Source: Clostridium sp.
Lineage (GTDB): Bacteria; Bacillota; Clostridia; Clostridiales; Clostridiaceae
Reading direction: 5' to 3'
Length of the DNA stretch: 64,000 bases
NCBI GenBank assembly: GCA_015058405.1
Contig: SVCL01000191.1
Location: forward strand, 19,424 to 83,423
Each line of letters begins with the position of its first letter. Position 1 is the stretch's first letter. A program made the translations under genes and the position numbers. The notes below the pieces were generated by a model that made no database searches, was not told the origin of the DNA, and saw nothing but the letters and a program-made list of their open reading frames with translations. Shown here piece by piece: positions 19,321-51,147 of this stretch.

Positions 19321-19477
19321 AAAGTAAAATTAATATAAAAAAATCATAAAAAATATATTTATAGAGCAGTGTTTTTTATAAATATATAAATTTGTTGTGC
19401 AAAAAAAAAGTGTCAGTTCTTGGAATACTATAATTTTTTTAAAAATATGTTATAAAAAATTAAGGGGTTGTAATAAT

Positions 19478-20179
19478 GTGAAAAAGATAAAATTATTTTG
19501 TATAGCACATGCAGGGGGATCAGCGGTCTCTTTTATTAAATGGAGAGATTATATAGATAAAAAAATAGAGGTGATACCTATAGAACTTTCAGGAAGAGGT
19601 GCTAGAATAGATCAAAAACTATATGATACTTTTGAGGAAGCAGTAGATGATGTATATAATGTAATTAATAGTGAAACAGAAAATAGTAAGTATGCTATAT
19701 ATGGACACAGTATGGGAAGCTGGATTGCTTTAGCATTATGTTATAAGCTTGCAAAAGAAAAGAGAAAACCTCCTGTACATTTATTTGTTTCAGGTAAGGA
19801 AGCACCATTTACAAAAGAAAAAGAAGAAAATATACATATGTTAAATGATAAGGAATTAGAGAAAAAATTAAAAGAATTAGGAGGAACTCCTAGATATATA
19901 TTTGAGAACGAAGAGTTAAAAAAGATGTTTTTACCTATTATAAGAGCTGATTACAAAATTATAGAAAGGTATAAGTTTAAAGAGAAACAGGAATTAAATT
20001 GCCCTATTTCTTTTTTTTATGGAATAAATGATTCAATAAGTGATTATGAAATAAATGGTTGGAGTAATTTTACTAATAATGAGTTCAGAATCATTAAGTT
20101 TAAAGGCAATCACTTCTTTTTATATGAAGATGTAGAAAAAGTAAGTGAAGAAATTAATTCAATATTAAAATGCTATTAA
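19478..20179 (+). CDS. Type II (editing) thioesterase; likely GTG start at 19478 (ORF track gives 19397)
   Basis: LFCIAHAGGSA, catalytic GHSMG, IIRADY, GNHFF; AAGGGG RBS before the GTG. Confidence 0.92.
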   Translation: MKKIKLFCIAHAGGSAVSFIKWRDYIDKKIEVIPIELSGRGARIDQKLYDTFEEAVDDVYNVINSETENSKYAIYGHSMGSWIALALCYKLAKEKRKPPVHLFVSGKEAPFTKEKEENIHMLNDKELEKKLKELGGTPRYIFENEELKKMFLPIIRADYKIIERYKFKEKQELNCPISFFYGINDSISDYEINGWSNFTNNEFRIIKFKGNHFFLYEDVEKVSEEINSILKCY

Positions 20180-20197: not shown

Positions 20198-21175
20198 ATG
20201 CAAAATATTTATTATTGGAATTATGTGAATCAATGGAAGATTGATGGCGAATATCTAATCATAGGAAAAGAGAAGTTTAAAGGAAGTGTTACAAAATTAT
20301 TTCCAGAGTTTTATTTTTATGCTCAAGACGGCATAGATGTAGATAATTTACCTGATTTATCGGATAAGGTTAATAAGAAGATAATTAAAATATTTACAAG
20401 AGATTTGATTAAAAAAGGAATATTAAGAAATACTATTAATACTCCTTCTGAAATATTTGAATCACAAAGTAAATATATTAAAAGCATATATGATGATAAA
20501 TATTTCTTTGAAAGTGAAAATGTAGAGAAATTTAAAAAGGAACAAAAGTCAAGATTTATTAATATGCATAATGATAATGATGAAATAGCTTTAGATAATG
20601 AGATAAGTATTCCAGATTTTATTATAAATAGAAAGAGCGTTAGAAATTATGACATAAATAAAAAAATAAGTTTTAATACAATTTCTAATTTATTAGGTGC
20701 ATTAAAAAAGGTAAAAGATGAAGAAAGGTTTTATTATCCAAGTGCTGGGGGACTATATCCTATTAATGTATATATCTATTTTAAAGAAGATAGGGTAGAA
20801 GGAATAAAACAAGGATTATACTTCTATAATCCTGTAGATAATAGTCTTCGTCTAGTAAATAGTAATTGTAGTATAAATGATGAAAGTCAATTCTTTACTA
20901 ATAAAAATATCTTCAAGACATCAGCATTTACCATGTATTTAACATATGATAGTGAAAGTAATTTCCCTAAATATAAAAGTGATGGATATTTTTATGGATT
21001 ATTAGATTGTGGTGCAATGGTATCATTAATGAATTATATTGCATCGTATTTAGGATTAGGTTCATGTTCTATTGGATCTATGAATTTTGATTCAATAAAG
21101 GACTTTTTTAAATTAAAGCAAAACGAAGAATACATTCATTCAATTGAGTTTGGCTATGAAAATAATGAGAATTAA
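20198..21175 (+). CDS. Stand-alone SagB/ThcOx-type FMN-dependent thiazoline oxidase (nitroreductase fold) with N-terminal extension
   Basis: NRKSVRNY, YPSAGGLYPINVY, LLDCGAM and LGLGSCSIG motifs; immediately precedes the NRPS carrying Cy domains. Confidence 0.88.
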   Translation: MQNIYYWNYVNQWKIDGEYLIIGKEKFKGSVTKLFPEFYFYAQDGIDVDNLPDLSDKVNKKIIKIFTRDLIKKGILRNTINTPSEIFESQSKYIKSIYDDKYFFESENVEKFKKEQKSRFINMHNDNDEIALDNEISIPDFIINRKSVRNYDINKKISFNTISNLLGALKKVKDEERFYYPSAGGLYPINVYIYFKEDRVEGIKQGLYFYNPVDNSLRLVNSNCSINDESQFFTNKNIFKTSAFTMYLTYDSESNFPKYKSDGYFYGLLDCGAMVSLMNYIASYLGLGSCSIGSMNFDSIKDFFKLKQNEEYIHSIEFGYENNEN

Positions 21176-21187: not shown

Positions 21188-24100
21188 ATGGGAAAAAGGT
21201 ATTTGGGCGAATATCTGTATTTATTAAGAAAAGAGAATAATAAAGGGATAACTATATTACATTCAAATGAAGAAGAGGAATACATAACATATAGTGAATT
21301 CTATAAGTTATGTAATGAGTTTGGAGAAAAATTAAAGGCAGTAGGCATAAGTACAAGTGATAAAGTATTAATTCAAGTTAATAATCAAAAAAAGTTTATT
21401 GTTATAATGTGGGCTTGTATATTGAAGGGAATAGCATTTATACCTGTTAAGGCTATTGAGAGTAATATAGATAGAAACTTGGTTGAAAATATAGTAGGTC
21501 AACTTGATGATATTAAGATAATAGTAGAAGAGGATAATAAAAATAAATACAAACAGTTTTTAGAAGATTCTCTGATTAATTTCGAAGAAATAGATAAAGT
21601 AGAAATAGATAACAATGAAATTGAAAATGATGGAGTTATAAGTGATAATTCAATGGCTTTAATTCAGTTTTCATCAGGATCTACTGGAAATCCTAAAGGA
21701 ATAGTTATAAGTCATAAAAATATTATAGTTGATCTTGTCTCTGTAATTAAATCATATAAACTTCAAGAAGAAGATTCAATTATGACATGGATGCCTTTAA
21801 CTCATTCTTTTGGATTATTAGCAGTTCATATATTAGCTGTAATGAATTGTACAAGCCAATATATAATGCAAACTAATACATTTATAAGTAAACCTAATTT
21901 ATGGTTAAGAAAAACTTCAGAAAATAGAAGTTCTTATCTATTTGCTCCTAACTTTGCAATGCAATATATAGTGGATAATATAGAAGAATTAAAAGAAGAA
22001 AATTTGGATTTAAGTTGTGTAAAATCAATTGTTTCTGCAGCTGAAAATATAAAAGAAGTTACTTGTAATAACTTTATAAATACTTTAAAACAATTTAATT
22101 TAAAAGCTAATGTTATCCGTCCTGCTTATGGATTATCAGAAGGAACGATTTTTATTAGTGTAACTGATTTAGCTAAAGGACATGTTAAGCATATAGTAGA
22201 TAGAAAATGTTTAACTATAGGAAGTAAGTTGAAATTTTTAGATTCTAATAGTAATGAAGCTGTTACCTTTATTGAAGATGGTAAAGTTTTAGACTGTTGT
22301 GAGGTAAGAATTTGTGATGATAAAATGAATGTTTTACCAGAGGGGTATATAGGTAGAGTACAGATAAAAGGTCATATGTTAGCAGAAGGATATATCAATA
22401 ACAATTCTATAGAACCTCTTTATCTTGTAGATAATGAGTGGTTTGATACAGGAGATATTGGATTTTTAAATGATAATGCCTTAACTATAACAGGTAGAAG
22501 TAAAGAAATAATCATAATTAATGGTACAAATTTATATCCTTTTGACTTTGAAAATTTAATAGAAGAGAATACTAACATAAAGCATAATTCCACAGTAGTA
22601 GCAGCCTTGTATAATGAGGAAATAGGTGAGGATGAGATTTTAGTATTTACTGTATACGAAGAGGAATTGGGAGATTTTACGGATTTAGTAAAAGAAATTA
22701 GAAAAGTAGTAAAGAAGAATACTGGATTTAATATAAAAGATGTAATAAAGATAGATTCAGTTCCTAGAAATAATAATGGTAAAGTAAGAAGATTAGAGCT
22801 AGTACAAAATTATGCAGATGGCATTTATAAAAAAGAGAATTTAAGTAATAATAAAACAAATGTAGATAAGGAAAGTTCAGTAAATAAAATTAATTCTATT
22901 TTAATTGATGTAATTAGAAAAGAATTAAAAAATAATAGTATAGATATTACAGATTCAATTTTAGAATATAATATTTCATCTATAAAAATCATTAAGATAT
23001 TAGGAATATTAGCTAATGAGACAAAAGTGAAAATTGAATTTAGTGAATTTATCGATTGTGATACATTCTTAGAATTAGCTAATATTATAAATGAAAAATA
23101 TAGCACTAATGAAGTGGTGGAAGCGGATAAGAAAATAGTAATTGATAAAGAAAATTTATATGAAGAATTTAATTTAACTAATATACAAATGGCTTATTTA
23201 ATGGGAAGAAATAAGCAATTTGAATTAGGAGATACTTCAACACATTACTATGCAGAAATAGAAACAACACTTGATATAGATAAGTTAAATAAGAGCCTAA
23301 ATGATGTTGTTAAAAGACAACCTATGTTAAGAGCAATATTTACTAATAATGCTAAACAAAAAATATTAGAAAGTGTTCCAGAATATAAAATCGAAGTAAT
23401 AGATGCAGTGAATAAAGAAGATATTTTAATGGCTGAAAGAAATAAAATGTCTCATCATATGTTTGATCCATATACTTGGCCATTATTTGATTTTAAAGCT
23501 TTAAAGATATCAGAAGAAAAATATAGATTACTATTTGGTATAGATTTATTAGTATCAGATGGTGCAAGTATTCAAATGTTATTTAAAGAAATAGCTGATG
23601 TTTATTATGGTAAAGATAAGGAAGAATTAGATATTACATTTAGAGATTATATATGTTCTAAGGAAGGATTATGTGAAACTGAAGCTTATAAAGTTGATAA
23701 AGAGTTTTGGAATAATAAAATTCCTGATATTCCACAGGCACCACAGTTACCTTTAAAGGTGAGATTAGCTGATATTAAGAAACCTCACTTTTTAAGAAAG
23801 GAAGCTATTATAGAATATGAGGACTGGAATAAGTTAAATGATTTATGTAAGAAACATAATACAAGATTAACATTTATGTTACTTACAGCATATTCATTAG
23901 TGCTTTCTAGATGGAGTAATCAAAAGGATATATCTCTAAATACAACAATATTCAATAGGGAATTAGCAAATGAAAGTATCCATAAGATAATAGGAGATTT
24001 TACATCAGCGTTAATTTTAGATGTTGATACTAAAGATAGAAATGATTTCTGGAAGTTAGCTAAAGAAGTTCAAGATAATTTTATGAATTTATATAGTCAT

Positions 24101-27100
24101 AAAAATTATGATGGAGTTAATGTAATTAGAGATTATAGTACTTACAATAATTTAGATAACAAGTCAGCAATAATGCCAATTGTATTTACTAGTATGTTAT
24201 TTGATGAAGAGGATAGTAACTTCGGAAATATAGGAGAAATGGTATACGGTATAACACAAACTTCTCAAGTATATTTAGATCATCAAGTAATGAATTTAGA
24301 AAAAGGAATATTATTAAATTGGGATTATGTTAGCGAAGCATTTGAAGAAGATACTATTAATTCAATGTTTAAAGAATATGTTGACTTAATTATGAACTTA
24401 TCAAATGATATTAATATAAATGAAGCAACTTATGAAGTAGAAAAAATGTTTGATAAGTATAATGATACATCAGAAGAATTTTCTACAGAAACATTACAAG
24501 AAATGTTTAGAAAGCAAGTTCTATTGAATCCAGAAAATATTGCGTTAAAGTATAAAGAAAAAGAAGTTTCTTATAAAGAACTTGATATTGCATCCAATAA
24601 AGTAGCAAATTATTTATCTAAAGAAAATGTACAAAAAGGAGATTTAGTAGGGGTACTAGCAGAGAGAAGTATAGAAAGTATCATTAGCATATTAGGTATC
24701 TTAAAAGCTGGTGCTGGATATATTCCTATAAATCCTGATTTTCCAGATGAGAGACAAAAGTATATATTAGATAATGCTAATTCTAACATTTTACTTAATT
24801 CAGAATTATGCAAGAATATAATAAAGAATTATGAAGAAAAGACAGATAATATATATGATAATGTAGATGATATTGCATATATAATTTACACATCTGGTAG
24901 TACTGGAAAACCAAAAGGTGTTGTTATAAAACATAAAGCAGTGTGCAACACAATTAAAGATATAAACAATAGATTCCATGTGGATAAAGATGATGTGTTT
25001 ATTGGATTAGCATCATTAAGTTTTGACTTATCAGTTTATGATATTTTTGGAAGCTTAACTACAGGTGGTAAGCTAATAATCATTGATGATCAAAGAAATG
25101 TTGAAGATGTAAGTAATATAGTAAAAAATGAAAAAGTAACAATATGGAATTCGGTTCCAGCTGTTATGGAAATGTTAATAGATTACAGAGAATCTCATGA
25201 AGAACAAGTTATAGATTACGATGATTTAGATGAATTAAGATTAGTTCTATTAAGTGGTGATTGGATTCCAGTTTCATTACCAGAAAGAATAAAAGACGAG
25301 TTTATGGATTGCCAAGTAATAAGTTTAGGTGGAGCAACTGAAGCATCAATATGGTCAATATATTATCCTATAGAAGAAGTAGATGAAAATCTTACAAGTA
25401 TACCATATGGATATCCTCTAGCCAATCAAACATATTATGTTTTAAATTATAATATGGAACTTTGTCCTGTAGGTGTAAAAGGTGAGTTATATATTGGAGG
25501 AGTTGGACTTGCAGAATGTTACTTAAATGATGATGAAAAAACTAATAATTCTTTCATTATACATCCTAAATATGGAAGAATCTATAAAACTGGAGATATG
25601 GGTAGATTTACTAATAATGGTTATATAGAATTCATGGGTAGAAATGATTCACAAGTTAAGGTTAGAGGATACAGAATAGAACTTGGAGAAATTGAAGCAG
25701 CAATATTAGAAAATACTAGTATAAAAAATGCAGTTATATTAAATGGAAAAGATAAAAATGGTATAAGTACATTGTTTGCATTCTTTACTTCAGAATCAGC
25801 TGTTGATATCCAAAGTTTAAGAAATACTTTAAAAGAATCATTACCTAAATATATGGTCCCAACATACTTAAAACAAGTTGATGAGATTCCATTAACTAAT
25901 AATGGAAAGATTGATAGAAAAACATTATTATCAATGGATTTAGAAGAGTCTGGATATAAGAAAGTTATAATACAACCTAAGAATGTTGTAGAAGCAAGAT
26001 TAGTAGAATTATGGAAAGAACTATTAGGTATTAAAGAAGTAAGTACAGATGATAATTTCTTTGAATTAGGTGGTAATTCAATTTTAGTAATTAAATTAGT
26101 AAGTTTAATAGAAAAAGAATTTAATATTAAAATTGACTTCAAGAATTTCATTGAAAATAGCAAAATCAAACAAATGGCTAAAATAATTGATAATTCTGAA
26201 AAGAAAAGTGATGATGATATAACATTTAAGGAAATTATTTTAGATGTTGAAAATCAATATGAGGAATTTGATTTAACTAATATACAAATTGCTTATTTAA
26301 TAGGTAGAGATAAACAATTTGAATTAGGTGGTACTTCAACACATGCCTATATGGAAATAGAAACAACATTAGAGATAGAAAAATTAAATGATGCTTTAAG
26401 AAAAGTAATACAAAGACATCCAATGTTAAGAGCTATTATTTTACCAAATGGTAAACAAAAAGTATTAGAAAATGTTCCTGATTATAATATTGAAGTAATA
26501 GATTTAACAAATAAGACTGTAGAAGAAAAAGAAGATTGTAACTTAAAGTTAAGGCATGAAATGTCACATCATATTTTTGATACTGATGTTTGGCCACTAT
26601 TTAATTTTAAAGCATTAAAAATGGATGTTAGTACTTATAAGATATTATTTGAAATTGACTTATTAATTGCAGATGGTGCAAGTATTCAAATGATATTTAA
26701 AGAAATGAAAGAATTCTATGATGGTAAGGAAAAGAAAGAATTAGGAATAACATTTAAAGATTATATGTGTAATTACAAATCTGTGTTAGAAAGTAAGAAG
26801 TATAAGGAAGATAAAGAATACTGGCAAAATAAACTTCCAGAAATACCTAAGGCAGCTCAATTACCATTAAAGAAGAAGGTTTCAGAAGTTGATGAACCTA
26901 ACTTTGGAAGAAAGCTTAGAATAATAGAAAATTCTACATGGGCTAATATTTGTGAAAAGGCAGCACAAAATAGCATAACACCAGCAATGATATTATTTAC
27001 AGCATATGCAAAAGTATTATCTAGATGGAGTAATCAAGATAAATTATCTATAAATACTACAGTATTTAATAGATTACCTATTCATGAGGATGTTAATGAT

Positions 27101-30100
27101 GTTATAGGAGACTTTACTTCATTAATGTTATTAGGTGTAGATACAAGCGTAGAAGATGATTTTTGGCTATTATGTAAGTCAATTCAAAGAGAGTTTATGG
27201 AAGCATTAGATCATAGAGATTATGATGGAATAAATGTAATTAGAGATTATTGTTCATATAATGAATTAGACAAAAATTCAGTAGCAATGCCTATAGTTTT
27301 CACAAGTATGCTATTTGGAAAAACTTTAGATTTATCTAATTCTATTTCTTCAATAGGTGATACATTAATGTCTGTAACTCAAACTTCTCAAGTATATTTA
27401 GATTATCAAATAATGGAAGTTAAAGATGGAATTCAATTAAGTTGGGATTATATAAAAGAGTTATTTGATGAAGATGTAATAACTAATATGTTTAATTATT
27501 ATATAGATTTAATATTAAGCTTAGTTGGAGATAAACCAGGAATTGTAGAAGATGCATATTTAGATAAATTTATAGAAGATTATAATAATACAGATGAAGA
27601 TGTAAAGGTAGAAACACTACAAAAATTATTTATGAATAAGGCTAAAGAGTATCCTAATAATATAGCAGTAAAATTGGGAGATAATAGCTTTACTTATAAG
27701 GAATTAGATGAAAGATCTAATAAGATAGCAAATTATTTAATGGAAAATCAAGTTGGTAGAAATGATTATATAGGAATATACGCAAAAAGAGATATAAACA
27801 CAATTGCTAATATTTTAGGAGTTCTAAAAACAGGGGCTGCATATGTGCCTATAGAACCAGAATATCCAGATGAAAGAAGAGAATATATTTTATCCAATAG
27901 TAATTGTAAGTTTATGTTAGTACCTGATTTTTATGATGATAATGATATTGATGAGTATTCACAAGAATTTTTAGGCGTAGATGATAATAAGGAAGATGTT
28001 GCTTATATTATTTATACATCAGGTAGTACAGGAAAACCAAAAGGTGTTGTAATTAAACATGAATCAGCAGCTAATACAATAATAGATATGAATAATAAGT
28101 ATAATGTTACTTCAGAGGATAGAGTTATAGCATTATCATCAATGGGATTTGACTTATCTATTTATGATATATTTGGTTCATTATCTTCAGGAGCAACTTT
28201 GGTTATGATAAAAGATCATAGAGATATTATTAATTTGATTGATATTGTAACTAAAGAGAAAATAACTATATGGAATTCAGTTCCAGCTATAATTAATATG
28301 TTTATTGATAATGTAGATTCCGGATATATTAATGAAGATTTAAAACATATATTATTAAGTGGAGATTGGATAGGCTTAAAGCTACCAAATAGAATAAAAG
28401 AATGTTTTGTAAATGCTGATGTTACAAGCTTAGGAGGAGCAACAGAAGGATCTATATGGTCTATCTATTATCCAATAAATGAAATGAAGAGTAAGTGGAA
28501 GAGTATACCATATGGAATGCCTTTAGCTAATCAAAAAATATATATATTAGATTATCAAATGAAACACTGCCCTATAGATGTTGAAGGAGAAATATTTATA
28601 GGTGGTATTGGTGTAGCAAATGGTTATATAAATGAAGAAGAAAAAACTAAGGCAGCCTTTATAAATCACCCAACATTAGGATATATTTATAAAACAGGTG
28701 ATTATGGAGTATTAAGAAAAGAAGGTTACGTAGAATTTATAGGAAGAAAAGATTATCAAATAAAAATAAGAGGATATAGAATAGAACTTGGAGAAATCGA
28801 AAAGAGAATACTTGAATATAAAAATATAAAAACAACAGTTGTAGTTGATAAAGTTGATTCAAGAAATAATAAGTATTTATGTGCATATATAGTTTCTGAT
28901 AATCAGATAAATATTAGCGAAATAAGCGATTACTTAATTGAGGTTTTACCAGAATATATGGTTCCAAGGATAGTAATGCAAATTGATGAAATACCATTAA
29001 CTCAAAATGGAAAAGTTAATTTAAAGGCATTACCTGAACCAGAAATGTTAGAGGAAGTTGCAAGTGATAATTATATTGAGGCTTCAGGAGAAATTGAAGA
29101 AAAGTTACTAGAAACATGGAAAGAAGTATTTGATTCTGAAAATATTGGTGTTGCAGATAGATTCTTTACTTTAGGTGGAGATTCAATAAAAGCAATTCAA
29201 ATATGTGCAAAGGTAAAGAAATATGGATTTAAGTTAAATGTACATGATATTTTATTAAATCAATCAATTAATAAGATAAAGAATTGTATAACATTAACTG
29301 AATTGAAATGTGATCAAGGAGTAGTAACAGGTAAGAGTAAGCTTACTCCAGTACAAAAGTGGTTCTTTGAACATGAATTTAAAAATATGAATCAATGGAA
29401 TCAAGGTTATATGCTATTTAGAAAAGAAGGATTTGATGTAGCAATATTAGAAAAGACTTTAGATAAGTTAGTAGAACATCATGATGCATTAAGATCTAAT
29501 TTTAGAATGAATGAAAATGTATTAGTGGAATACTTTGAAGATGTAGATAATAAATCATATAACTTATCTGTACTAGATTTAAGAACTGATGATAACTTCA
29601 AAGATACTATTAATACTGAAGTTGAAGCTGTACAAAAATCCTTAGATATAGAAAATGGTCCAATGGTTGGTGCAAAGATATTTAGTACTATAGAAGGGGA
29701 TTACTTATTTATGACAATTCATCATTTGGTTGTTGATGGTATATCATGGAGAATAATTCTTGAAGATTTAAATAGTATTTATATGCAATTATTAGAAGGA
29801 GAAGAAGTTATCTTACCAGAAAAGAGTAGCTCATTTAAGCAATGGAGTGAAGCATTATACAGTTATGCTGAAAGCAATAAGATATTAGAGATGGCAGAAT
29901 ATTGGTCAAGATTTAATTCTGAAACAGAATTTGTATTACCAAAGGATAATAATTTTGATACTAATATGATGAAGGATAGTTCAACTGAAATAATGAGTAT
30001 TTCTAAGGAAGATACAGATAGATTATTACAAGGTACTAGTAAGAATATTGATGCCGATATAAATGAAATTCTGTTAACAGCGTTGGCTATAAGCATCAAA

Positions 30101-30724
30101 AATTGTTATGACAAATCTAGATTTATAATTAATATTGAAGGTCATGGAAGAGAAAATATAGTGAATAATATTGATATATCTAGAACTGTTGGATGGTTTA
30201 CATCTATTTCACCTTTACTTTTAGATATAACTAATAGTACTAATATTGAAGAATCAATAGAAGAAGTAAAGAAAGAAGTAAGAGCAATACCAAATAAAGG
30301 TGTGGATTATGGAATATTAAGATATATTGCATCAGATGAAATTAGAAATAATATAAATTTAAATATTAATCCTGAAGTTACATTCAATTATTTAGGTCAA
30401 ATGGGACAACAAAGAGAAGATGATGCGTTTAAGGTATTACCAGATTATATTGAAAATTGTATGAATGAAGAATCAGAGAGAGCTTCTTTCTTAGATGTAT
30501 TTGGTGTTACAGTAGATGGTAGTCTTACATTTAGATTTATATACAATTCTAAAGCATGTAATAAAGAGACTATGGAATTATTAAGTGAAAACTTCAAGAA
30601 AGCAATATTTGATATTATAGATTATTGCGAATCTCAAGAAAGTAGTAATAATTCAGTAGATTTATTAGAAAATGATATATCAGAAGATGAATTCGATGAT
30701 ATACTTGACATATTAAATGAGTAA
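21188..30724 (+). CDS. NRPS 1: FAAL-ACP-Cy-A(Cys)-PCP-Cy-A(Cys)-PCP-E
   Basis: FAAL motifs QFSSGSTGNPKG, WMPLTHSFGL, YGLSEGT and ITGRSKEIIIING. Cy signatures DLLVSDGAS and DLLIADGAS. Both A domains give by-eye code DLYNLSLIWK (Cys). PCPs GGNS and GGDSI. E domain HHLVVDGISW and EGHGRE. Confidence 0.93.
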   Translation: MGKRYLGEYLYLLRKENNKGITILHSNEEEEYITYSEFYKLCNEFGEKLKAVGISTSDKVLIQVNNQKKFIVIMWACILKGIAFIPVKAIESNIDRNLVENIVGQLDDIKIIVEEDNKNKYKQFLEDSLINFEEIDKVEIDNNEIENDGVISDNSMALIQFSSGSTGNPKGIVISHKNIIVDLVSVIKSYKLQEEDSIMTWMPLTHSFGLLAVHILAVMNCTSQYIMQTNTFISKPNLWLRKTSENRSSYLFAPNFAMQYIVDNIEELKEENLDLSCVKSIVSAAENIKEVTCNNFINTLKQFNLKANVIRPAYGLSEGTIFISVTDLAKGHVKHIVDRKCLTIGSKLKFLDSNSNEAVTFIEDGKVLDCCEVRICDDKMNVLPEGYIGRVQIKGHMLAEGYINNNSIEPLYLVDNEWFDTGDIGFLNDNALTITGRSKEIIIINGTNLYPFDFENLIEENTNIKHNSTVVAALYNEEIGEDEILVFTVYEEELGDFTDLVKEIRKVVKKNTGFNIKDVIKIDSVPRNNNGKVRRLELVQNYADGIYKKENLSNNKTNVDKESSVNKINSILIDVIRKELKNNSIDITDSILEYNISSIKIIKILGILANETKVKIEFSEFIDCDTFLELANIINEKYSTNEVVEADKKIVIDKENLYEEFNLTNIQMAYLMGRNKQFELGDTSTHYYAEIETTLDIDKLNKSLNDVVKRQPMLRAIFTNNAKQKILESVPEYKIEVIDAVNKEDILMAERNKMSHHMFDPYTWPLFDFKALKISEEKYRLLFGIDLLVSDGASIQMLFKEIADVYYGKDKEELDITFRDYICSKEGLCETEAYKVDKEFWNNKIPDIPQAPQLPLKVRLADIKKPHFLRKEAIIEYEDWNKLNDLCKKHNTRLTFMLLTAYSLVLSRWSNQKDISLNTTIFNRELANESIHKIIGDFTSALILDVDTKDRNDFWKLAKEVQDNFMNLYSHKNYDGVNVIRDYSTYNNLDNKSAIMPIVFTSMLFDEEDSNFGNIGEMVYGITQTSQVYLDHQVMNLEKGILLNWDYVSEAFEEDTINSMFKEYVDLIMNLSNDININEATYEVEKMFDKYNDTSEEFSTETLQEMFRKQVLLNPENIALKYKEKEVSYKELDIASNKVANYLSKENVQKGDLVGVLAERSIESIISILGILKAGAGYIPINPDFPDERQKYILDNANSNILLNSELCKNIIKNYEEKTDNIYDNVDDIAYIIYTSGSTGKPKGVVIKHKAVCNTIKDINNRFHVDKDDVFIGLASLSFDLSVYDIFGSLTTGGKLIIIDDQRNVEDVSNIVKNEKVTIWNSVPAVMEMLIDYRESHEEQVIDYDDLDELRLVLLSGDWIPVSLPERIKDEFMDCQVISLGGATEASIWSIYYPIEEVDENLTSIPYGYPLANQTYYVLNYNMELCPVGVKGELYIGGVGLAECYLNDDEKTNNSFIIHPKYGRIYKTGDMGRFTNNGYIEFMGRNDSQVKVRGYRIELGEIEAAILENTSIKNAVILNGKDKNGISTLFAFFTSESAVDIQSLRNTLKESLPKYMVPTYLKQVDEIPLTNNGKIDRKTLLSMDLEESGYKKVIIQPKNVVEARLVELWKELLGIKEVSTDDNFFELGGNSILVIKLVSLIEKEFNIKIDFKNFIENSKIKQMAKIIDNSEKKSDDDITFKEIILDVENQYEEFDLTNIQIAYLIGRDKQFELGGTSTHAYMEIETTLEIEKLNDALRKVIQRHPMLRAIILPNGKQKVLENVPDYNIEVIDLTNKTVEEKEDCNLKLRHEMSHHIFDTDVWPLFNFKALKMDVSTYKILFEIDLLIADGASIQMIFKEMKEFYDGKEKKELGITFKDYMCNYKSVLESKKYKEDKEYWQNKLPEIPKAAQLPLKKKVSEVDEPNFGRKLRIIENSTWANICEKAAQNSITPAMILFTAYAKVLSRWSNQDKLSINTTVFNRLPIHEDVNDVIGDFTSLMLLGVDTSVEDDFWLLCKSIQREFMEALDHRDYDGINVIRDYCSYNELDKNSVAMPIVFTSMLFGKTLDLSNSISSIGDTLMSVTQTSQVYLDYQIMEVKDGIQLSWDYIKELFDEDVITNMFNYYIDLILSLVGDKPGIVEDAYLDKFIEDYNNTDEDVKVETLQKLFMNKAKEYPNNIAVKLGDNSFTYKELDERSNKIANYLMENQVGRNDYIGIYAKRDINTIANILGVLKTGAAYVPIEPEYPDERREYILSNSNCKFMLVPDFYDDNDIDEYSQEFLGVDDNKEDVAYIIYTSGSTGKPKGVVIKHESAANTIIDMNNKYNVTSEDRVIALSSMGFDLSIYDIFGSLSSGATLVMIKDHRDIINLIDIVTKEKITIWNSVPAIINMFIDNVDSGYINEDLKHILLSGDWIGLKLPNRIKECFVNADVTSLGGATEGSIWSIYYPINEMKSKWKSIPYGMPLANQKIYILDYQMKHCPIDVEGEIFIGGIGVANGYINEEEKTKAAFINHPTLGYIYKTGDYGVLRKEGYVEFIGRKDYQIKIRGYRIELGEIEKRILEYKNIKTTVVVDKVDSRNNKYLCAYIVSDNQINISEISDYLIEVLPEYMVPRIVMQIDEIPLTQNGKVNLKALPEPEMLEEVASDNYIEASGEIEEKLLETWKEVFDSENIGVADRFFTLGGDSIKAIQICAKVKKYGFKLNVHDILLNQSINKIKNCITLTELKCDQGVVTGKSKLTPVQKWFFEHEFKNMNQWNQGYMLFRKEGFDVAILEKTLDKLVEHHDALRSNFRMNENVLVEYFEDVDNKSYNLSVLDLRTDDNFKDTINTEVEAVQKSLDIENGPMVGAKIFSTIEGDYLFMTIHHLVVDGISWRIILEDLNSIYMQLLEGEEVILPEKSSSFKQWSEALYSYAESNKILEMAEYWSRFNSETEFVLPKDNNFDTNMMKDSSTEIMSISKEDTDRLLQGTSKNIDADINEILLTALAISIKNCYDKSRFIINIEGHGRENIVNNIDISRTVGWFTSISPLLLDITNSTNIEESIEEVKKEVRAIPNKGVDYGILRYIASDEIRNNINLNINPEVTFNYLGQMGQQREDDAFKVLPDYIENCMNEESERASFLDVFGVTVDGSLTFRFIYNSKACNKETMELLSENFKKAIFDIIDYCESQESSNNSVDLLENDISEDEFDDILDILNE

Positions 30725-30739
30725 GGAGAGATTTAATAT

Positions 30740-32173
30740 ATGAGTAAAGATAAAAAAGATATTAAAAGTATATATGGACTTTCTCCTATGCAAACTGTAA
30801 TGCTATTTAATTCAATAAAAAGCGCAAACAATGACGATGATCCTTATTTCAGACAATATTTAATTGATATACAAGGTGAAGTATGCGTTGAAAATTTAAA
30901 AAAGAGTATGCAGTTAATTATTGAAAGATATGATATTTTACGAACAGCTTTTGTTTATGAAAAAGTTAAACAACCAGTACAAGTAGTTTTTAATAGTAGA
31001 GAAATATCTATAGGATACGAAGATTTATCTAATTTAGATGAAGAGAAGCAAAAAGATGCTATAGATAAAATGATGAAAGAAGATAAGAAGATTAAATTTA
31101 ACTTATCAAAAGATGTTCTAAACAGAATGAAATTAATTAAGTTATCAGATAAGAAATATAAACTTTTATGGAGTAATCATCATATTTTAATGGACGGTTG
31201 GTGTGGAAGTATAATTCTTAATGAATTTTGTGATATTTATGAATCGCTTCAAGAAAATAAGAGAGTAAATTTACCAGCTGTAAATCAATATAGTGAATAC
31301 ATAAATTGGTTAAAGAAATATAATAAAAATGAAGCTTTAATGTATTGGAAAAAGTATTTAGCTGGATATAAAAATAAAACTAGTATACCGACTAATAAAA
31401 CTAATAAAATATATGAATACAATGAATTAGTATTGAAGCTAAATAAAGAAACTACCAGTAGATTGAAAAAATTTGCATTAGATAATCAAGTTACTTTATC
31501 AATAGTAGTAGATATTTTATGGGGATTACTTTTACAGGCTTACAATGAAACAAATGATTCAATGTTTGGAATGGTTGTATCAGGAAGAATGGCTCCTGTT
31601 GATGGAATTGAAAAAATGGTAGGTCTATTTATAAATACTATTCCAATGAGAATTAAGATATCAAATAGTACAAGTTTTTCAGATTTAAAAAATCAAGTAC
31701 AACAAGCAGTTATATATGGAGAAAAATATAGTAGTGTTTTATTAACTGAAATGTTGTCAGCAGCTAGCATAAATAATGATATGTTAGATCATATGGCTGT
31801 ATTTGAAAACTATCCAAGTGATGGTATTATAAAGAATAAATATTTTAGCTGCAAATTCATGAATTCAGCAGAAAAGACAAATTATGATTTTAATGTTTTA
31901 TTTTATCCAGGGGACGAAATAGAAGCTAGATTTACTTATAATAAAAATATGTATAGTGAAGAAATTATTAAAGTAATAATTAGTCATTTAGAAAAGTTAT
32001 CTAATAGTATTATTAAAGATGCAGATAAAACTTTATTAGATGAAAAGTTGAAAAAAGAATTGTTATTTGAATTAAGAGAAAAGCTAATAGATATAGAATG
32101 TGCTGATATTCTTAATGAAAAATTAAGCTTTTCTGAAGTTATTCCACAAGATGAAGGAAGCTTTACATTTTAA
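30740..32173 (+). CDS. Stand-alone condensation domain (DCL-type)
   Basis: IYGLSPMQ, RYDILRTAF, HHILMDGWC, VGLFINTIP; no A or PCP domain; ends QDEGSFTF. Confidence 0.92.
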   Translation: MSKDKKDIKSIYGLSPMQTVMLFNSIKSANNDDDPYFRQYLIDIQGEVCVENLKKSMQLIIERYDILRTAFVYEKVKQPVQVVFNSREISIGYEDLSNLDEEKQKDAIDKMMKEDKKIKFNLSKDVLNRMKLIKLSDKKYKLLWSNHHILMDGWCGSIILNEFCDIYESLQENKRVNLPAVNQYSEYINWLKKYNKNEALMYWKKYLAGYKNKTSIPTNKTNKIYEYNELVLKLNKETTSRLKKFALDNQVTLSIVVDILWGLLLQAYNETNDSMFGMVVSGRMAPVDGIEKMVGLFINTIPMRIKISNSTSFSDLKNQVQQAVIYGEKYSSVLLTEMLSAASINNDMLDHMAVFENYPSDGIIKNKYFSCKFMNSAEKTNYDFNVLFYPGDEIEARFTYNKNMYSEEIIKVIISHLEKLSNSIIKDADKTLLDEKLKKELLFELREKLIDIECADILNEKLSFSEVIPQDEGSFTF

Positions 32174-32278: not shown

Positions 32279-35200
32279 ATGTTTAATGATTCTAAAGAAA
32301 CAGATTTAGAAAAGTTAAAAAGGCAACGTTCATATTGGATGAATAAATTATCAGATTATCTTTGTGAAAATAAGTTTCCATATAATAATGTAATTAACGG
32401 AGATAAAGAATATATTATTGAGAAATATACAGTAGATAATGAAATGTTATTAAGTTTAAAGAATATATCTGGTAACTCTAAAAGAAGATTATATGTTTTA
32501 TTAGTATCTTGTATGTGTATATTACTTTATAAAAATACTAAGAAAAATAAAATGGTAATAGGTTCGCCTATCTTAAAGCAAAAAGAGAAAAAAGAATATA
32601 TAAACACATTAATTCCTATAGTGGCAGATTTAAATGATGATATATCCTTTAAAGAATTAGTACTATCAATAAATGAGACAATGCTTGAAGCTTACGATAA
32701 TCAAGATTATCCAATGAAAAATATAATAGAAAATTTAAAGAGGGATAGTAAAAAGGATGATTTAGAATTATTCTCTATAAATACTAGAGAACATAGTATT
32801 CATGAAAATTGTTATGATGAAGAATTGAAAAGAGAATTAAATTTACAATTTTCAATAAATGATAAGAATATAGAGATTAATGTAGAATATAATTCTTCTT
32901 ATTACGTAAAAGACTATATTGATACTTTGATTAATCAATATAAAAATATAATTAAAGTAGCTTGTAATAATCCTAAAGTGATGCTTAAAGATATATCTTT
33001 AATATCATTAGAGGAAGTAGATTTAATATTAAATAAATTTAATAATACTAAAACTAATTACCCTAGCGGAAAGAGCGTTAAAGATATTTTTGAAGAAACA
33101 GCAAGAGAAAATAAAGATAAGATAGCTGTTGTATCAGGAGACAGAAGTTTAACTTATGGAGAATTAGATGAAAAATCTAATCAAATAGCTCATTCCTTAA
33201 TTGGCCAAGGAATTGAAAATAATGATGTTGTAGCTATATTATGCGATAAAAGTATAGATACAATAGTAGGAATATTAGGAATAGTAAAAGTGGGTGCAGC
33301 TTATTTACCAATTGATACAAGCTATCCTAAAAGCAGAGTAGATTATATGGTATCTGATAGTAAAGCAAAAGTATTACTATTGCGACAAGATTCTATTGAT
33401 AATAAGGTTGTTAAGGATTTACCTTTAAATAGAATTGTTATAGATAGTAAAGAGGTTCTATTAGAAGATAAGGAAGCGGTTAATAGAGTAGTATCAGCGC
33501 AAGATTTAATATATATTATATATACCTCAGGAAGTACTGGAAAACCTAAAGGTGTATGTGTTATGAATAAAAATGTAGTTAGATTAGTTAAGAATACTAA
33601 TTATGTAGAATTCAAAAAGGAAGATAGAATATTACAAACAGGTTCTATAGCATTTGATGCATCAACTTTTGAGGTATGGGGATCATTATTAAATGGTTCA
33701 GCTTTATATGTAGAAAGCAAAGATATAATACTAGATAGTAATGTAATTAAAGATTATATTAATAAAAATAATATTTCAGTTATGTGGTTGACTTCTCCAT
33801 TATTTAATCAATTATGTGAAGATAAAGTTGAGATTTTTTCTAACTTAAGATATTTGATAGTAGGAGGAGATGTAGTATCTCCGAAGTATGTAAATAAGGT
33901 AAGAAAAATTAATGATAGTATTGTAATAGCTAATGGATACGGACCAACAGAAAATACAACTTTCTCTACTGTTTATTTAATAGATAAAGATGTAGATGAA
34001 GAAAAAACAATACCAATAGGAAAACCAATATCAAATTCAACTGCCTATGTATTAGATAAAAATCAAAATTTAGTACCAATAGGTACAATAGGTGAATTAT
34101 ATGTTGGTGGTGAAGGTGTAGCAAAAGGGTATTTAAATAGAGAAGATTTAACAAAAGAAAAGTTTATAGAAAATCCTTTTAATAAATCAGAAAGATTGTA
34201 TAGAACAGGGGATAAAGTAAGGCTGCTAAAAGACGGAAATATAGAGTTTTTAGGTAGAATAGATTATCAAGTAAAAATAAGAGGATTTAGAATAGAGTTA
34301 CAGGAAGTAGAAAGAAGAATATTAGAACATGAAAATGTTAAAGAAGTTGTAGTATTAGATAAGTTAGATAAGCATGGAAGTAAATGTTTAGCAGCTTATA
34401 TAGTGGGAGAAAATGAAATAAAAGCATCAGAAATTAGGGCGTATTTAATAGAAAGATTACCTGATTATATGATACCTTCTGAATTCTATATTATTGAAAA
34501 GATGCCATTAAATCAAAATGGAAAAGTTGATAGAAAAGAATTACTTCTATTAGAAGCTAAGGAAGATAGTAGCGAAGAGTGTTGTAAAGGTAGAAATGAA
34601 ATAGAAAATTTATTAATTGATATATGGGAAAGTGTTTTAGTAAGGAAAGGAATTGGAATATATAATGATTTCTTTACTTTAGGTGGAGATTCTATAAAGA
34701 TAATTCAAGTTCTTTCTCAATTAAGAAAATATAACTATAAATTAAATGTACAAGATTTCTTTAATTATCCAACAATTTCAGAATTAGCTCTTCATATTAA
34801 AACTATTGATGAAGAAATAGATCAAAAGTTAGTTGTAGGAAAAACTAATTTAACACCTATTCAAGAGTGGTTTTTTAATGAAAGTAATAACGAAATAAAT
34901 CACTTTAATCATTCTGTAATGATTTTCAAAGAAGATGGATTTGATTTAAAAGTATTAAAGAAAACATGTCATAAGTTAATTGAACATCATGATGCATTAA
35001 GAATGACTTATAAATTTGAAAATGATAAGATTACTGGATTTGTTAATGATCTAAATGAAAATAGCTTAAAATTTAAAGTTATAGATTTAAGAAATAGCGA
35101 TTATTATGAAGATATAATAGAGCAAGAAACAATGAAAGAGCAAAAATCAGTAGATATAAGAAAGGAATCACTTACTAGATTTGTTTTATTCAAAACACCA

Positions 35201-41585: not shown

Positions 41586-41611
41586 AACATAAGTAATTTG
41601 GGGGAGTTATT

Positions 41612-44600: not shown

Positions 44601-45325
44601 TACTTAAAATGTTTTCTCTTATAAATAATATCTATAAAGATAAGATTAAAATTACAGATATTTTTGCTAATCCAACAATAAAAGAATTAGCAAAATTAAT
44701 TGGTTATAATCCAGAAGATGAAGAAAATTATGAAATAGAAGGATTAAAGCTAAGTGATGAATATTTCTTGAATAATGAAAGAAATACTGAAAATTCAATG
44801 TTTGAGTATACAATTGATGAAGATATGTATAGTGAATTACTAAGAATTTCAGATAATTTAGCTATTAATATAGAAACAATATTAATAGCTACAAATATTT
44901 ATATTAATAATAAAATAAGTGATATCAGTGAACAAGTTATATATACAATTCTTGATAAAGAAGATAAGGTTAAAAAGAGCATTATTGATTTAAAATCAAT
45001 AAGTAATTTTACAGATTTGTTTATGTTAGTTAAAGAAGGTATCTTTGACAATGAGGAAAATGTGTACGATATTGCTAAATTTAATAGAGTAATTAAAAAC
45101 AATAAAGAAGTAAATATAATTTATCCTTTAATATATAATAATGAACTTGATGTTAGTGATTATAATTTAGAAGAAATATTTAATTTATCACTAAGTGTTG
45201 AAAAATTTGAAGATTATTTAAAACTTAAGTTTAACTATAATACTGATATTATTAAGACTAATAAAGTTGAAGAAATGTTTGGTTTATATATTAATTTATT
45301 AGAAATGATAATTAAAAACTATTAA
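41612..45325 (+). CDS. NRPS 4: C(DCL) - A(Leu) - PCP - half-C
   Basis: HHIIMDGWC; A code DAWFLGNVVK (Leu); PCP GGNS; C-terminal ~190 aa resemble a degenerate C-lobe. Confidence 0.92.
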   Translation: MGNKVKIEKIYNLTSMKEGMILYDELNKENDAYIEQSMFIIKGCLNVNTLEETFNKLIERYEAFRSVFISKGINEPVQVVVQDAKLVIHYEDLTNYTGSKEEYIKKFEEEDRRKGFDLTKAPLTRVSVLKLDEEVFQVVWSFHHIIMDGWCMGILIDEMFKIYDSINENYTLDLPKVHSYSKYMDWLKLQDEDEAEEYWKEYMSEYEECACIINSKTSASSSKYDVCDLYFKVNKEKTGILKEISNKYGVTLSTIIQSIWGIMLQRYNSTKDVIFGAVVSGRPAEVENVSSIVGLFINTIPVRVKTEEKMQFNELLLDMQNKALQSDKYQYYSLAKNQSNSLVKENLINNIVAFENYPESDEINNSNSLMKSNLLISDLRAYEQTSYDFNFIVLPGEELTIRFNYNGAKYDTGTIERIKDHFINIVNNVVENDSIIIDDIDIIGDEEKEKILNHFNNTNKEYENKKNVIELFEEQVEINPENIAIVDGEEEVTYKELDKKSNLLASKLLENERLGSESIISIMMDRSINMIVSMLAVLKVGAAYLPIDPEYPSNRIEYILQNSKSDMLITQKKYSKDLDFEGSILNIEEVNFADELKVERINNSKYDDLAYIIYTSGTTGNPKGVMIEHRNLINLCKWHVDRFGITEKDNSAQYASMGFDACVWEIWPYIISGSTIYIVPNELKIDILSLNNFYNKNNITVSFLPTPICQSFIEIGENSSLRYLLTGGDKLVNYKKQNYKLVNNYGPTENTVVTTSFEVDAEYSNIPIGKPIYNTKVYILDKNDKLAPIGVSGEICISGSGISRGYLNNEKLTKEKFIDNPYNKEEKMYRTGDLGKWTNDGNIEFQGRSDYQVKIRGFRIELGEIESNLLKIEGVTEATVLDIGEGDNKHLCAYITTGKELSISYLKEVLKENLPKYMVPTYFIILDRMPLTPNGKVDKRALLKVEINNEESENIEVQQETNDIEKNLLGVWEKILGVKGIKLEENFFDIGGNSLLVLKMFSLINNIYKDKIKITDIFANPTIKELAKLIGYNPEDEENYEIEGLKLSDEYFLNNERNTENSMFEYTIDEDMYSELLRISDNLAINIETILIATNIYINNKISDISEQVIYTILDKEDKVKKSIIDLKSISNFTDLFMLVKEGIFDNEENVYDIAKFNRVIKNNKEVNIIYPLIYNNELDVSDYNLEEIFNLSLSVEKFEDYLKLKFNYNTDIIKTNKVEEMFGLYINLLEMIIKNY

Positions 45326-45344
45326 ATATTATTGGAGGGGTTGT

Positions 45345-46595: not shown

Positions 46596-46613
46596 ATTTT
46601 AAAAGGAGGAAGT

Positions 46614-50153: not shown

Positions 50154-50181
50154 ATAAATATTTTTTTAGGGGGAATTTAAA

Positions 50182-51105: not shown

Positions 51106-51147
51106 TTTCATCTAGAGAGCTAAAGTAAAGAGGCGGAGGATATAAAA

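What the first reader, a model, noticed from the sequence alone, without database searches (positions are those of the whole stretch)
26230..32173. Epimerase directly after a heterocyclisation (Cy-A(Cys)-PCP) module, with a matching DCL partner
Seen: module 2 is Cy (DLLIADGAS), A(Cys), PCP with the GGDSI signature typical of E-coupled PCPs, then an intact E domain (HHLVVDG, EGHGRE). The next protein is a DCL-type C domain. If both rings were oxidised to thiazoles the alpha-stereocentre would be lost and E would have no role. Inference: the oxidase acts selectively on ring 1, leaving a thiazole followed by a D-thiazoline; alternatively Cy2 condenses without cyclising, giving D-Cys. A canonical E domain acting on a thiazoline is rarely documented to my knowledge.
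Basis: partly seen in the sequence, partly recalled or inferred. Interest (0 to 1): 0.68.

Follow-up and report, generated by a model that had tools for sequence, protein, structure and literature searches.

The report
Epimerase after a thiazoline-forming NRPS module
A Clostridium lipopeptide assembly line puts an ordinary, intact epimerase straight after a ring-forming cysteine module, and related gene clusters show that this epimerase and the ring oxidase are used as alternatives for a given ring, so the product most likely carries a thiazole followed by a mirror-image (D) thiazoline.

Summary
NRPS1 (21188-30724) reads FAAL-ACP-Cy1-A(Cys)-PCP-Cy2-A(Cys)-PCP-E. The next gene (30740-32173) is a stand-alone C domain of the DCL type. 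Cy2 keeps DxxxxD and the Thr/Asp(/Gln) cyclodehydration residues. The E domain keeps all seven canonical motifs and a GrsA-like COM tail. A BmdC-type oxidase gene lies just upstream, with its FMN-binding residues and catalytic Tyr intact.

The new evidence is comparative:
- A gene-for-gene collinear cluster in Clostridium butyricum (12 proteins, 43-51% identical) has no oxidase and carries an E domain after both Cy modules.
- In C. estertheticum and one other homologue the oxidase is fused in cis after Cy module 1, and E follows Cy module 2.
- The only locus with an oxidase and an E domain in the same module has a degenerate E (HC, EGNGRD, FKYYGQ).

It argues against an uncyclised D-Cys. No product has been characterised, and I found no published precedent for a canonical E domain in a Cy module. 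The known D-thiazoline epimerases (PchE, HMWP2) are methyltransferase-like inserts. I rate this a new variant of a known kind, of moderate to high interest, and directly testable.

The parts
19397..20179 (+). Type II thioesterase (editing TE)
   Evidence: Pfam Thioesterase, E 5.6e-36. 45% identical to the TE gene upstream of the C. butyricum orthologue.
20198..21175 (+). Discrete FMN-dependent thiazoline oxidase, BmdC type (RRE-like N-domain plus nitroreductase fold)
   Evidence: 239 bits, full-length alignment to BmdC 7LY7_B. Residues equivalent to BmdC R145, S147, R149, N236, S292, G294 and Tyr260 are kept, and R146 is K (one search read against PMC8795117). The gene is absent from the collinear C. 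butyricum cluster.
21188..23137 (+). NRPS1 loading part: fatty acyl-AMP ligase-like domain plus carrier protein
   Evidence: Pfam AMP-binding and PP-binding. Non-amino-acid code GLVFVAAIFK. The same FAAL-T start is found in the homologues.
23138..26212 (+). Module 1: Cy1 (DLLVSD) - A1 (Cys, DLYNLSLIWK) - PCP1 (GGNSI). No E domain.
   Evidence: Cy1 is 53% identical to Cy2. PCP1 has the non-E signature GGNSILV.
26243..27592 (+). Cy2 heterocyclisation domain
   Evidence: 359 bits to BmdB Cy2 5T3E. DLLIADGAS, Thr of PIVFTS and Asp/Gln of QVYLDYQ are kept. The dyad is as described in PMC9547227.
27593..29062 (+). A2, cysteine-activating adenylation domain, without any insertion
   Evidence: 585 bits to the BmdB A domain, collinear alignment. 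Stachelhaus code DLYNLSLIWK.
29063..29317 (+). PCP2 with the E-type signature FFTLGGDSIKAIQ
   Evidence: The same signature is found in the two other E-coupled PCPs of the cluster and in every Cy-A-T-E homologue.
29318..30724 (+). Canonical epimerisation domain with a C-terminal COM-donor-like acidic tail (…DISEDEFDDILDILNE)
   Evidence: 358 bits to GrsA E 5ISW, aligned through to the GrsA tail. All seven E motifs are intact. 44% identical to the orthologous E domain of C. butyricum.
30740..32173 (+). Stand-alone DCL-type condensation domain (HHILMDGWC), the partner of the E domain
   Evidence: Pfam Condensation positions 3-446. Best solved relatives are TycB1, BacC, SrfA-C and PvdL, all C domains that follow an E domain. 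35% identical to the two other post-E C domains of the cluster. 47% identical to the C. butyricum orthologue.
32279..37669 (+). NRPS3: half-C - A (Val code DAFWIGGTFK) - PCP - E - DCL. The acceptor module for the stand-alone C domain.
37686..54915 (+). Rest of the assembly line: NRPS4 (half-C-A-PCP-E), NRPS5 (DCL-A(Leu)-PCP), trans-AT, KS-ACP-C, CAAX-protease-like gene, NRPS6 (half-C-A(Tyr-like)-PCP-R)
   Evidence: Collinear with C. butyricum locus L078.

Best explanation
Module 2 of NRPS1 makes a D-configured thiazoline, and the oxidase aromatises only ring 1.

Proposed sequence of steps:
1. The FAAL loads a fatty acid.
2. Cy1/A1/PCP1 add Cys and cyclise it. The discrete BmdC-type oxidase converts the acyl-thiazolinyl-S-PCP1 to a thiazole.
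3. Cy2 condenses this donor with Cys-S-PCP2 and cyclodehydrates it to a thiazolyl-thiazolinyl-S-PCP2.
4. The canonical E domain equilibrates C4 (the former Cys alpha-carbon) of this ring.
5. The stand-alone DCL domain, recruited through a COM-type donor/acceptor pair, passes on only the D epimer to the Val module.
6. The chain continues through D-Val, a D residue with the unusual code DVEQVGNVDK, Leu, one malonyl unit and a Tyr-like residue. The R domain releases it reductively.

What is shown: the domain order, the integrity of the catalytic residues, the DCL type of the partner, and the pattern of oxidase versus E across homologues.

What is inferred: that E works on the PCP-bound ring (or on its acyclic N-acyl-Cys precursor), that the oxidase leaves ring 2 alone, and the structure of the product.
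For: - Domain identity and intact catalytic residues of Cy2, A2, PCP2, E, DCL and the oxidase.
- Natural comparison 1. The C. butyricum cluster (L077 plus L078) is collinear over 12 genes at 43-51% identity, with the same A codes. It has no oxidase homologue at all (tblastn at E<=10). It has an intact E domain after both Cy modules.
- Natural comparison 2. C. estertheticum (L076) and P0144 have the oxidase fused in cis directly after the PCP of Cy module 1, and an intact E after Cy module 2.
- Natural comparison 3. L031 has an intact oxidase embedded in the same module as an E domain. That E has lost the catalytic His (HHxxxDG to HC), and shows EGHGRE to EGNGRD, GWFT to GCFT and FNYLGQ to FKYYGQ.
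- None of the 44 Cy-containing representative proteins combines an oxidase and an intact E in one module.
- Four further Cy-A(Cys)-T-E loci (L035, L070, L079, L080) have an intact E and no oxidase in the stretches fetched, up to 10 kb on each side (less where the contig ends).
- The PCP signature covaries with the partner: GGDSIKA before an E domain, GGNS before a Cy or oxidase domain.
- E1 is as conserved against its C. butyricum orthologue (44%) as Cy (43%) and DCL (47%) are.
Against: - There are no chemical or biochemical data for this cluster or any homologue.
- The oxidase acts in trans, and the BmdC-BmdB docking salt bridges are not conserved in either A1 or A2. Sequence therefore does not show which module it serves.
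- Related clusters of the type TE2-Ox-FAAL-(Cy-A-T)n-R use one discrete oxidase with several Cy modules. The bacillothiazol system is described as multi-thiazole (title cited in PMC13324335 and PMC13001227). A trans oxidase can therefore in principle act on more than one ring.
- The degenerate-E argument rests on a single locus.
- Intact motifs do not prove activity.
- The absence of an oxidase in L035, L070, L079 and L080 is only established for the stretches fetched, at most 10 kb to each side.
Confidence: 0.6

Rival explanations
1. Both rings are oxidised to a bithiazole. The E domain is then catalytically idle and is kept only as the scaffold that carries the COM donor helix for docking the stand-alone DCL domain.
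For: - A discrete oxidase can serve several Cy modules in related clusters (architectures).
- L031 shows that a dead E domain with an intact COM-like tail and a downstream DCL can persist, so E-COM-DCL can be a purely structural unit.
- No sequence feature ties the oxidase to module 1.
Against: - All seven E motifs are intact here, although the domain has diverged by 56% from its C. butyricum orthologue.
- Where the oxidase really is in the same module, the E motifs decayed.
- The E domain after module 1 is exactly what is missing in the oxidase-bearing cluster, while the one after module 2 is retained.
- In two homologues the oxidase is hard-wired to module 1 only.
Confidence: 0.2
2. E epimerises free Cys-S-PCP2 before condensation, and Cy2 uses D-Cys as its acceptor. 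The product still has a D-thiazoline, but E never sees a heterocycle.
For: E domains of initiation modules act on aminoacyl-S-PCP (GrsA and TycA; established knowledge). The sequence data cannot tell when E acts.
Against: - In elongation modules E domains act on the peptidyl-S-PCP after condensation (established work on TycB and GrsB modules; my own knowledge, not tested here).
- A DCL gate downstream is what is expected for post-condensation epimerisation.
- Cy2 is 53% identical to Cy1, which takes L-Cys as acceptor, and shows no obvious acceptor-side change.
Confidence: 0.12
3. Cy2 only condenses, so the residue is an open-chain D-Cys, as in C-A(Cys)-T-E modules.
For: Some Cy domains are known to be condensation-only or inactive (for example VibF Cy1; my own knowledge). 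D-Cys made by an E domain is well known in other NRPSs.
Against: - Cy2 keeps DxxxxD, the Thr/Asp dyad and the Gln whose mutation impairs cyclodehydration (PMC9547227).
- Cy2 scores 359 bits against the active bacillamide Cy domain.
- All Cy domains that precede an E domain in the Clostridium homologues keep these residues.
Confidence: 0.05

Closest known systems
Pyochelin synthetase PchE and yersiniabactin HMWP2 (D-thiazoline formation)
   Same: A Cys-specific Cy module whose thiazoline is inverted to the D configuration on the assembly line before the next condensation (PMC8807600, PMC9547227).
   Different: There the epimerase is a methyltransferase-like domain inserted in the A domain between motifs A8 and A9, not a member of the C superfamily (PMC8807600). 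Here A2 has no insertion. The epimerase is a canonical C-superfamily E domain after the PCP, followed by a DCL domain.
Bacillamide synthetase BmdB with its discrete oxidase BmdC
   Same: Cy2, A2 and the oxidase are the closest solved relatives (359, 585 and 239 bits). It is a trans-acting RRE-like plus FMN oxidase that aromatises a PCP-bound thiazoline.
   Different: BmdB has one Cy module and no E domain. The BmdC-A domain salt bridges (D225-R1513, D231-R1512) are not conserved here.
GrsA/GrsB and TycA/TycB: A-T-E plus COM pair plus DCL
   Same: An E domain with the same seven motifs and an acidic C-terminal helix that aligns to the GrsA COM donor. The partner begins like TycB1 (MS..K..I..Y.L.PMQ) and is DCL type.
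   Different: There the E domain acts on an ordinary aminoacyl or peptidyl residue (Phe). Here the residue is made by a Cy domain, and the DCL domain is a separate 477-aa protein.
Bacillothiazol (nrs) type clusters: TE2-Ox-FAAL-(Cy-A-T)n-R
   Same: The same front end, with a type II TE, a discrete oxidase and a FAAL-primed string of Cys Cy modules. It is seen in L022, L025, L065, L067 and L073. The nrs product is reported as a multi-thiazole made with a discrete oxidase (cited in PMC13001227 and PMC10327441).
   Different: Those have no E domain and end directly in R. The window cluster continues into a peptide part rich in D-residues.
C-A(Cys)-T-E modules giving D-Cys (e.g. thiocoraline, FK228)
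   Same: A canonical E domain acting on a cysteine-derived residue (my own knowledge).
   Different: Those modules start with an ordinary C domain, so the residue stays open-chain.

Membership tests
Canonical NRPS epimerisation (E) domain, condensation superfamily | HHxxxDG with the second (catalytic) His | tested here: met
   IHHLVVDGISW at aa 2844-2854.
Canonical NRPS epimerisation (E) domain, condensation superfamily | E4 EGHGRE (catalytic Glu), E5 TVGWFT and E7 FNYLGQ motifs | tested here: met
   EGHGRE at aa 2984, TVGWFTS, and FNYLGQ at aa 3066.
Canonical NRPS epimerisation (E) domain, condensation superfamily | Closest relatives are proven E domains | tested here: met
   GrsA E 358 bits, TycB E 344, TycA E 338; C domains score 48 bits or less.
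Canonical NRPS epimerisation (E) domain, condensation superfamily | Epimerase activity on the PCP-bound substrate | not testable with these tools
   Needs an enzyme assay or product stereochemistry.
NRPS heterocyclisation (Cy) domain | DxxxxD in place of HHxxxDG | tested here: met
   DLLIADGAS at aa 1824.
NRPS heterocyclisation (Cy) domain | Thr/Asp cyclodehydration dyad (BmdB T1196/D1226; HMWP2 T1830/D1862) and helper Gln | tested here: met
   PIVFTS and QVYLDYQ align to the BmdB residues; the 30-residue spacing matches. The role of these residues is from PMC9547227.
DCL-type condensation domain | Groups with C domains that take a D-configured donor (those directly downstream of E domains), not with LCL domains | tested here: met
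   TycB1 333 bits, BacC post-E C 330, SrfA-C 297, PvdL post-E C 194, against 80 bits or less for TycC6 and LgrA. 35% identical to the two in-cluster post-E C domains, against 25% to the LCL-like C domain of the PKS protein.
DCL-type condensation domain | Selectivity for the D epimer at the donor site | not testable with these tools
   Needs a biochemical assay.
BmdC-type discrete thiazoline oxidase | RRE-like N-domain plus nitroreductase-fold FMN domain, with FMN-binding residues and the active-site Tyr | tested here: met
   Full-length alignment at 239 bits. R145, S147, R149, N236, S292, G294 and Y260 are conserved; R146 is K (with PMC8795117).
BmdC-type discrete thiazoline oxidase | Stable docking on the A domain through D225-R1513 and D231-R1512 | tested here: not met
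   The oxidase has C and S at these positions. A1 has N-E and A2 has K-E in place of R-R.
PchE/HMWP2-type embedded epimerase | Methyltransferase-like domain inserted in the A domain between A8 and A9 | tested here: not met
   A2 aligns collinearly with the uninterrupted BmdB A domain over 490 residues. Pfam finds no methyltransferase domain.

The most novel reading that the evidence does not exclude
The E domain is what gives a free-floating, undiscriminating oxidase its regioselectivity. Inverting C4 of ring 2 to the D configuration, with the DCL gate pulling the D epimer onward, makes that ring a non-substrate for the stereospecific FMN oxidase. On this reading, 'E or Ox' is a per-module switch that sets the thiazole/D-thiazoline pattern across a family of Clostridium lipopeptide aldehydes. 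It would also mean that a canonical C-superfamily E domain deprotonates a heterocycle directly.
Probability: 0.2. Interest if true: 0.75.

Novelty: new variant of a known kind. Interest (0 to 1): 0.62.

Why it matters
D-thiazolines in nonribosomal products have so far been explained by the unusual methyltransferase-like epimerases of the pyochelin and yersiniabactin systems. If an ordinary E domain does the same job, E-domain substrate scope extends to heterocyclic (or immediately pre-cyclic) intermediates. That would improve structure prediction for Cy-containing clusters, where current rules assume L or aromatic rings.

Nature has already built the comparison set: a cluster with E after both rings and no oxidase (C. 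butyricum), clusters with a cis oxidase then E (C. estertheticum), this one with a trans oxidase then E, and one with a cis oxidase and a dead E. This makes it directly testable how the oxidation state and stereochemistry of each ring are programmed. The C. butyricum version is common in genomes and metagenomes (listed in 43 blocks of the collection), so the product family may matter for gut and food clostridia.

Tried and rejected
- Close-relative scan of GTDB genomes with PCP2-E: nothing found.
- Whole-NRPS1 protein search: timed out.
- PCP2-E protein search: returned only short fragments at 39% identity or less and missed the long homologues. One of them, from B. velezensis, turned out to be the surfactin locus and is irrelevant.
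- Using the BmdC-BmdB docking residues to decide which module the oxidase serves: the salt-bridge residues are not conserved on either side, so this was uninformative.
- Literature search for a described Cy-A-T-E module or a characterised Clostridium product: thiamyxin, lusichelin, bilothiazole, the HDAC-inhibitor paper and the 'out of the rules' review contain no such case. The bacillothiazol primary paper (ACS Catal 2022) is not in the library.
I got round this through the trans-AT homologue.
- P0219 and P0269 first looked like Cy-A-T-E. Their E-like domains lack EGHGRE and FNYLGQ, so I did not count them.
- The near-identical second copy of NRPS1 (P0132) differs by a single residue, so it gives no information on selection.
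Full report
**Setting.** The window has about 26% G+C and a strong positive GC skew. A housekeeping pyruvate carboxylase (15538-18978) falls in a 90%-identity cluster whose only named member is from an 'uncultured Clostridium sp.'. From 19397 to 54915 all genes lie on the + strand and form one NRPS-PKS cluster:
- type II TE (19397-20179)
- oxidase (20198-21175)
- NRPS1 (21188-30724)
- stand-alone C domain (30740-32173)
- NRPS3 (half-C-A-PCP-E-C)
- NRPS4 (half-C-A-PCP-E)
- NRPS5 (C-A-PCP)
- trans-AT
- KS-ACP-C
- a CAAX-protease-like gene
- NRPS6 (half-C-A-PCP-R)

The cluster proteins I looked up by exact sequence are singletons, or in one case a pair, at 90% identity among about 15 billion proteins.

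The domain assignments rest on strong matches to solved structures:
- Cy2 matches the bacillamide Cy domain at 359 bits.
- A2 matches the BmdB A domain at 585 bits, collinear and without any insertion.
- E matches the GrsA E domain at 358 bits. The alignment runs to the very C-terminus, where the acidic tail DISEDEFDDILDILNE pairs with the GrsA COM-donor helix.

Both A domains give the canonical Cys code DLYNLSLIWK. I extracted the code against a GrsA fragment written from memory, and the reference positions returned the expected DAWTIAAICK.

Cy2 retains the Thr of PIVFTS and the Asp of QVYLD. These align to BmdB T1196 and D1226 with matching 30-residue spacing. They form the Asp-Thr dyad whose mutation cripples cyclodehydration, and the nearby Gln is also kept (PMC9547227).

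The 477-aa protein encoded next is a complete C domain (Pfam positions 3-446). Its best solved relatives are TycB1, the post-E C domain of BacC, SrfA-C and the post-E C domain of PvdL, at 333-194 bits. LCL domains reach only about 80 bits. Within the window it groups with the two other C domains that follow E domains (35% identity) and not with the LCL-like C domain of the PKS protein (25%). It is therefore DCL type.

As an internal control, the three PCPs that precede E domains all read GGDSIK. The others read GGNSI, GGNSL or GGDSL.

**The oxidase.** The gene at 20198-21175 aligns over its full length with BmdC (239 bits). Using the residue list of PMC8795117, the FMN contacts R145, S147, R149, N236, S292 and G294 and the active-site Tyr260 are conserved, and R146 is K. 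It therefore looks functional. The salt bridges that dock BmdC on the BmdB A domain (D225-R1513, D231-R1512) are not conserved. The oxidase has C and S at those positions, A1 has N-E and A2 has K-E. Sequence alone does not say which module it visits.

**Is the arrangement unique?** No. An exhaustive HMMER search with Cy2-A2-PCP2 and the N-terminal part of E, against 1.84 billion representative proteins, gave 149 top hits besides the window's own protein. I classified their domains by local BLAST. Forty-four contain Cy domains. Five contain Cy-A(Cys)-PCP(GGDSIKA)-E with all E motifs intact:
- P0144
- P0145 (named Clostridium butyricum)
- P0164 (Clostridium estertheticum)
- P0165
- P0224

A scan of one genome per GTDB species, using an alignment of these Cy domains, gave 74 loci. 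Two have an intact Cy-A-T-E-DCL: L035 (Ruminiclostridium cellobioparum) and L070 (Paenibacillus sp.). One, L031, has a degenerate version. Roughly 3 of about 57 complete Cy modules in those loci are followed by an E domain (an approximate count).

**The comparative evidence.** Four comparisons bear on the interpretation.

1. *C. butyricum.* The contigs carrying P0145 and the trans-AT homologue P0301 (L077 and L078) together show a cluster that is gene-for-gene collinear with the window. It has TE, NRPS1, a stand-alone DCL domain, NRPS3, NRPS4, NRPS5, AT, KS-ACP-C, a CAAX-like gene and NRPS6, plus the beta-lactamase-fold and NusG genes. The proteins are 43-51% identical and the A-domain codes are the same or nearly so. 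This cluster has no oxidase homologue at all (tblastn at E<=10). Its NRPS1 reads FAAL-Cy-A-T-E-Cy-A-T-E, with an intact E domain after both Cy modules. The window differs in exactly two linked ways. It has the oxidase gene, and it lacks the E domain after module 1 while keeping the one after module 2.

2. *C. estertheticum and P0144.* In both, a full RRE-like plus Ox unit is fused in cis between the PCP of the first Cy module and the next Cy domain. The E domain follows the second Cy module.

3. *L031.* This is the only case with an oxidase embedded in the same module as an E domain (Cy-A[Ox]-T-E, then DCL). Its oxidase keeps its FMN motifs and Tyr. Its E domain reads IHCLVIDG, EGNGRD, TVGCFT and FKYYGQ, so the catalytic His and other conserved residues are lost, while the COM-like tail survives.

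4. *L035, L070, L079 and L080.* All have an intact E domain after a Cy module and no oxidase in the stretches fetched, up to 10 kb on each side and less where the contig ends. In L079 the first Cy module carries a methyltransferase insert instead.

The PCP signature follows the same rule. It is GGDSIKA wherever an E domain follows, and GGNS where a Cy or oxidase domain follows. This includes PCP1 of C. butyricum (GGDSIKA, before E) against PCP1 of the window (GGNSILV, before Cy2).

**Interpretation.** Across this family, a given thiazoline is either aromatised or handed to an active E domain, not both. In the window this assigns the oxidase to ring 1 and E to ring 2. The predicted moiety is acyl-thiazole-(D)-thiazoline, passed by the DCL gate to a Val module.

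The predicted chain is fatty acyl - thiazole - D-thiazoline - D-Val - D-X (code DVEQVGNVDK, possibly a basic residue) - Leu - malonyl - Tyr-like residue, released by the R domain. The codes were read against my own knowledge of published codes.

Three steps remain inferred:
- that E acts on the ring, or on its acyclic N-acyl-Cys precursor
- that the trans oxidase does not also oxidise ring 2
- the actual product

**Rivals.**
- *Bithiazole with an idle, docking-only E domain* is the serious rival. A discrete oxidase serves several Cy modules in the many TE2-Ox-FAAL-(Cy-A-T)n-R clusters found in the scan. L031 proves that a dead E domain can persist as a scaffold. Against it stand the full motif integrity of the window's E domain despite 56% divergence from its orthologue, and the selective absence of the module 1 E domain.
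- *Epimerisation of Cys-S-PCP2 before condensation* would give the same product and cannot be excluded from sequence.
- *An uncyclised D-Cys* is unlikely given the intact Cy2 dyad.

**Known comparators.** D-thiazolines in pyochelin and yersiniabactin come from a methyltransferase-like domain inserted in the A domain (PMC8807600). A2 has no insertion here, so this cluster is not a member of that type although it would do the same chemistry. The Cy/A/oxidase parts are bacillamide-like. The E-COM-DCL hand-off is gramicidin/tyrocidine-like.

Full-text searches for Cy-A-T-E strings, for D-thiazoline with an epimerisation domain, and for Clostridium or C. butyricum thiazole NRPSs found no described case. 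The library lacks most subscription journals, so a precedent may exist elsewhere.

**Verdict.** The feature is a new variant of known NRPS logic that recurs in uncharacterised Clostridium, Ruminiclostridium and Paenibacillus clusters.

Noticed in passing
32279-33073, 37686-38465, 51148-51933: NRPS3, NRPS4 and NRPS6 each begin with a ~260-aa fragment that matches only the C-terminal lobe of a condensation domain (Pfam positions 188-455, no HHxxxDG). In each case the preceding protein ends in a complete C domain. The three fragments are 26-28% identical to each other. They are conserved in the C. butyricum orthologue and occur at the N-termini of other Bacillota NRPSs (P0148, P0186, P0192, P0224, P0274). 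They may be a scaffold for the A domain when the catalytic C domain is supplied in trans.
   Followed up: partly
44714-45322: NRPS5 carries about 200 extra residues after its PCP, with only a faint match to the last 50 positions of the Condensation profile (E 0.002). It sits just before the trans-AT and KS genes and could be a docking region or a domain remnant.
   Followed up: partly
46614-50153: The single PKS module is KS-ACP-C with no KR, DH or ER, and is served by a separate AT (45345-46595). Its terminal C domain has NHIISDG instead of HHxxxDG and is LCL-like.
   Followed up: no
50182-51105: A CAAX-protease/Rce1-like membrane protein gene lies between the PKS and the last NRPS gene. It is conserved at the same place in C. 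butyricum (46% identity). It may be an immunity or maturation function.
   Followed up: partly
58837-59334 and 59434-61416: A NusG paralogue and a 660-aa beta-lactamase-fold protein lie downstream of the cluster. In C. butyricum their orthologues (46% identity each) lie upstream of it, so both travel with the cluster. They might be a LoaP-like antiterminator and a D-stereospecific peptidase-like resistance protein. Both guesses come from my own knowledge and were not tested.
   Followed up: partly
38466-39893: The A domain of NRPS4 has the unusual code DVEQVGNVDK, which is conserved as DVEQIGNVDK in C. butyricum. I could not assign the substrate; the acidic pocket suggests a basic residue.
   Followed up: no
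54928-58784: The window cluster is followed by an MFS transporter, an ABC ATPase and a 547-aa protein with no Pfam match. The C. butyricum cluster has a phosphopantetheinyl transferase at that point instead. No PPTase gene was seen among the window ORFs of 150 aa or more.
   Followed up: no
25621-26169 (- strand): A 182-aa antisense ORF lies inside NRPS1. It is very likely a chance open frame of AT-rich DNA and not a gene.
   Followed up: no
L077 15107-16372: In C. butyricum the first E domain is followed directly by a Cy domain (E then Cy). That Cy domain must therefore accept a D-configured thiazolinyl donor. E-Cy junctions after ordinary modules are also common in the scan (L007, L010, L012, L018, L030, L037, L050).
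   Followed up: partly
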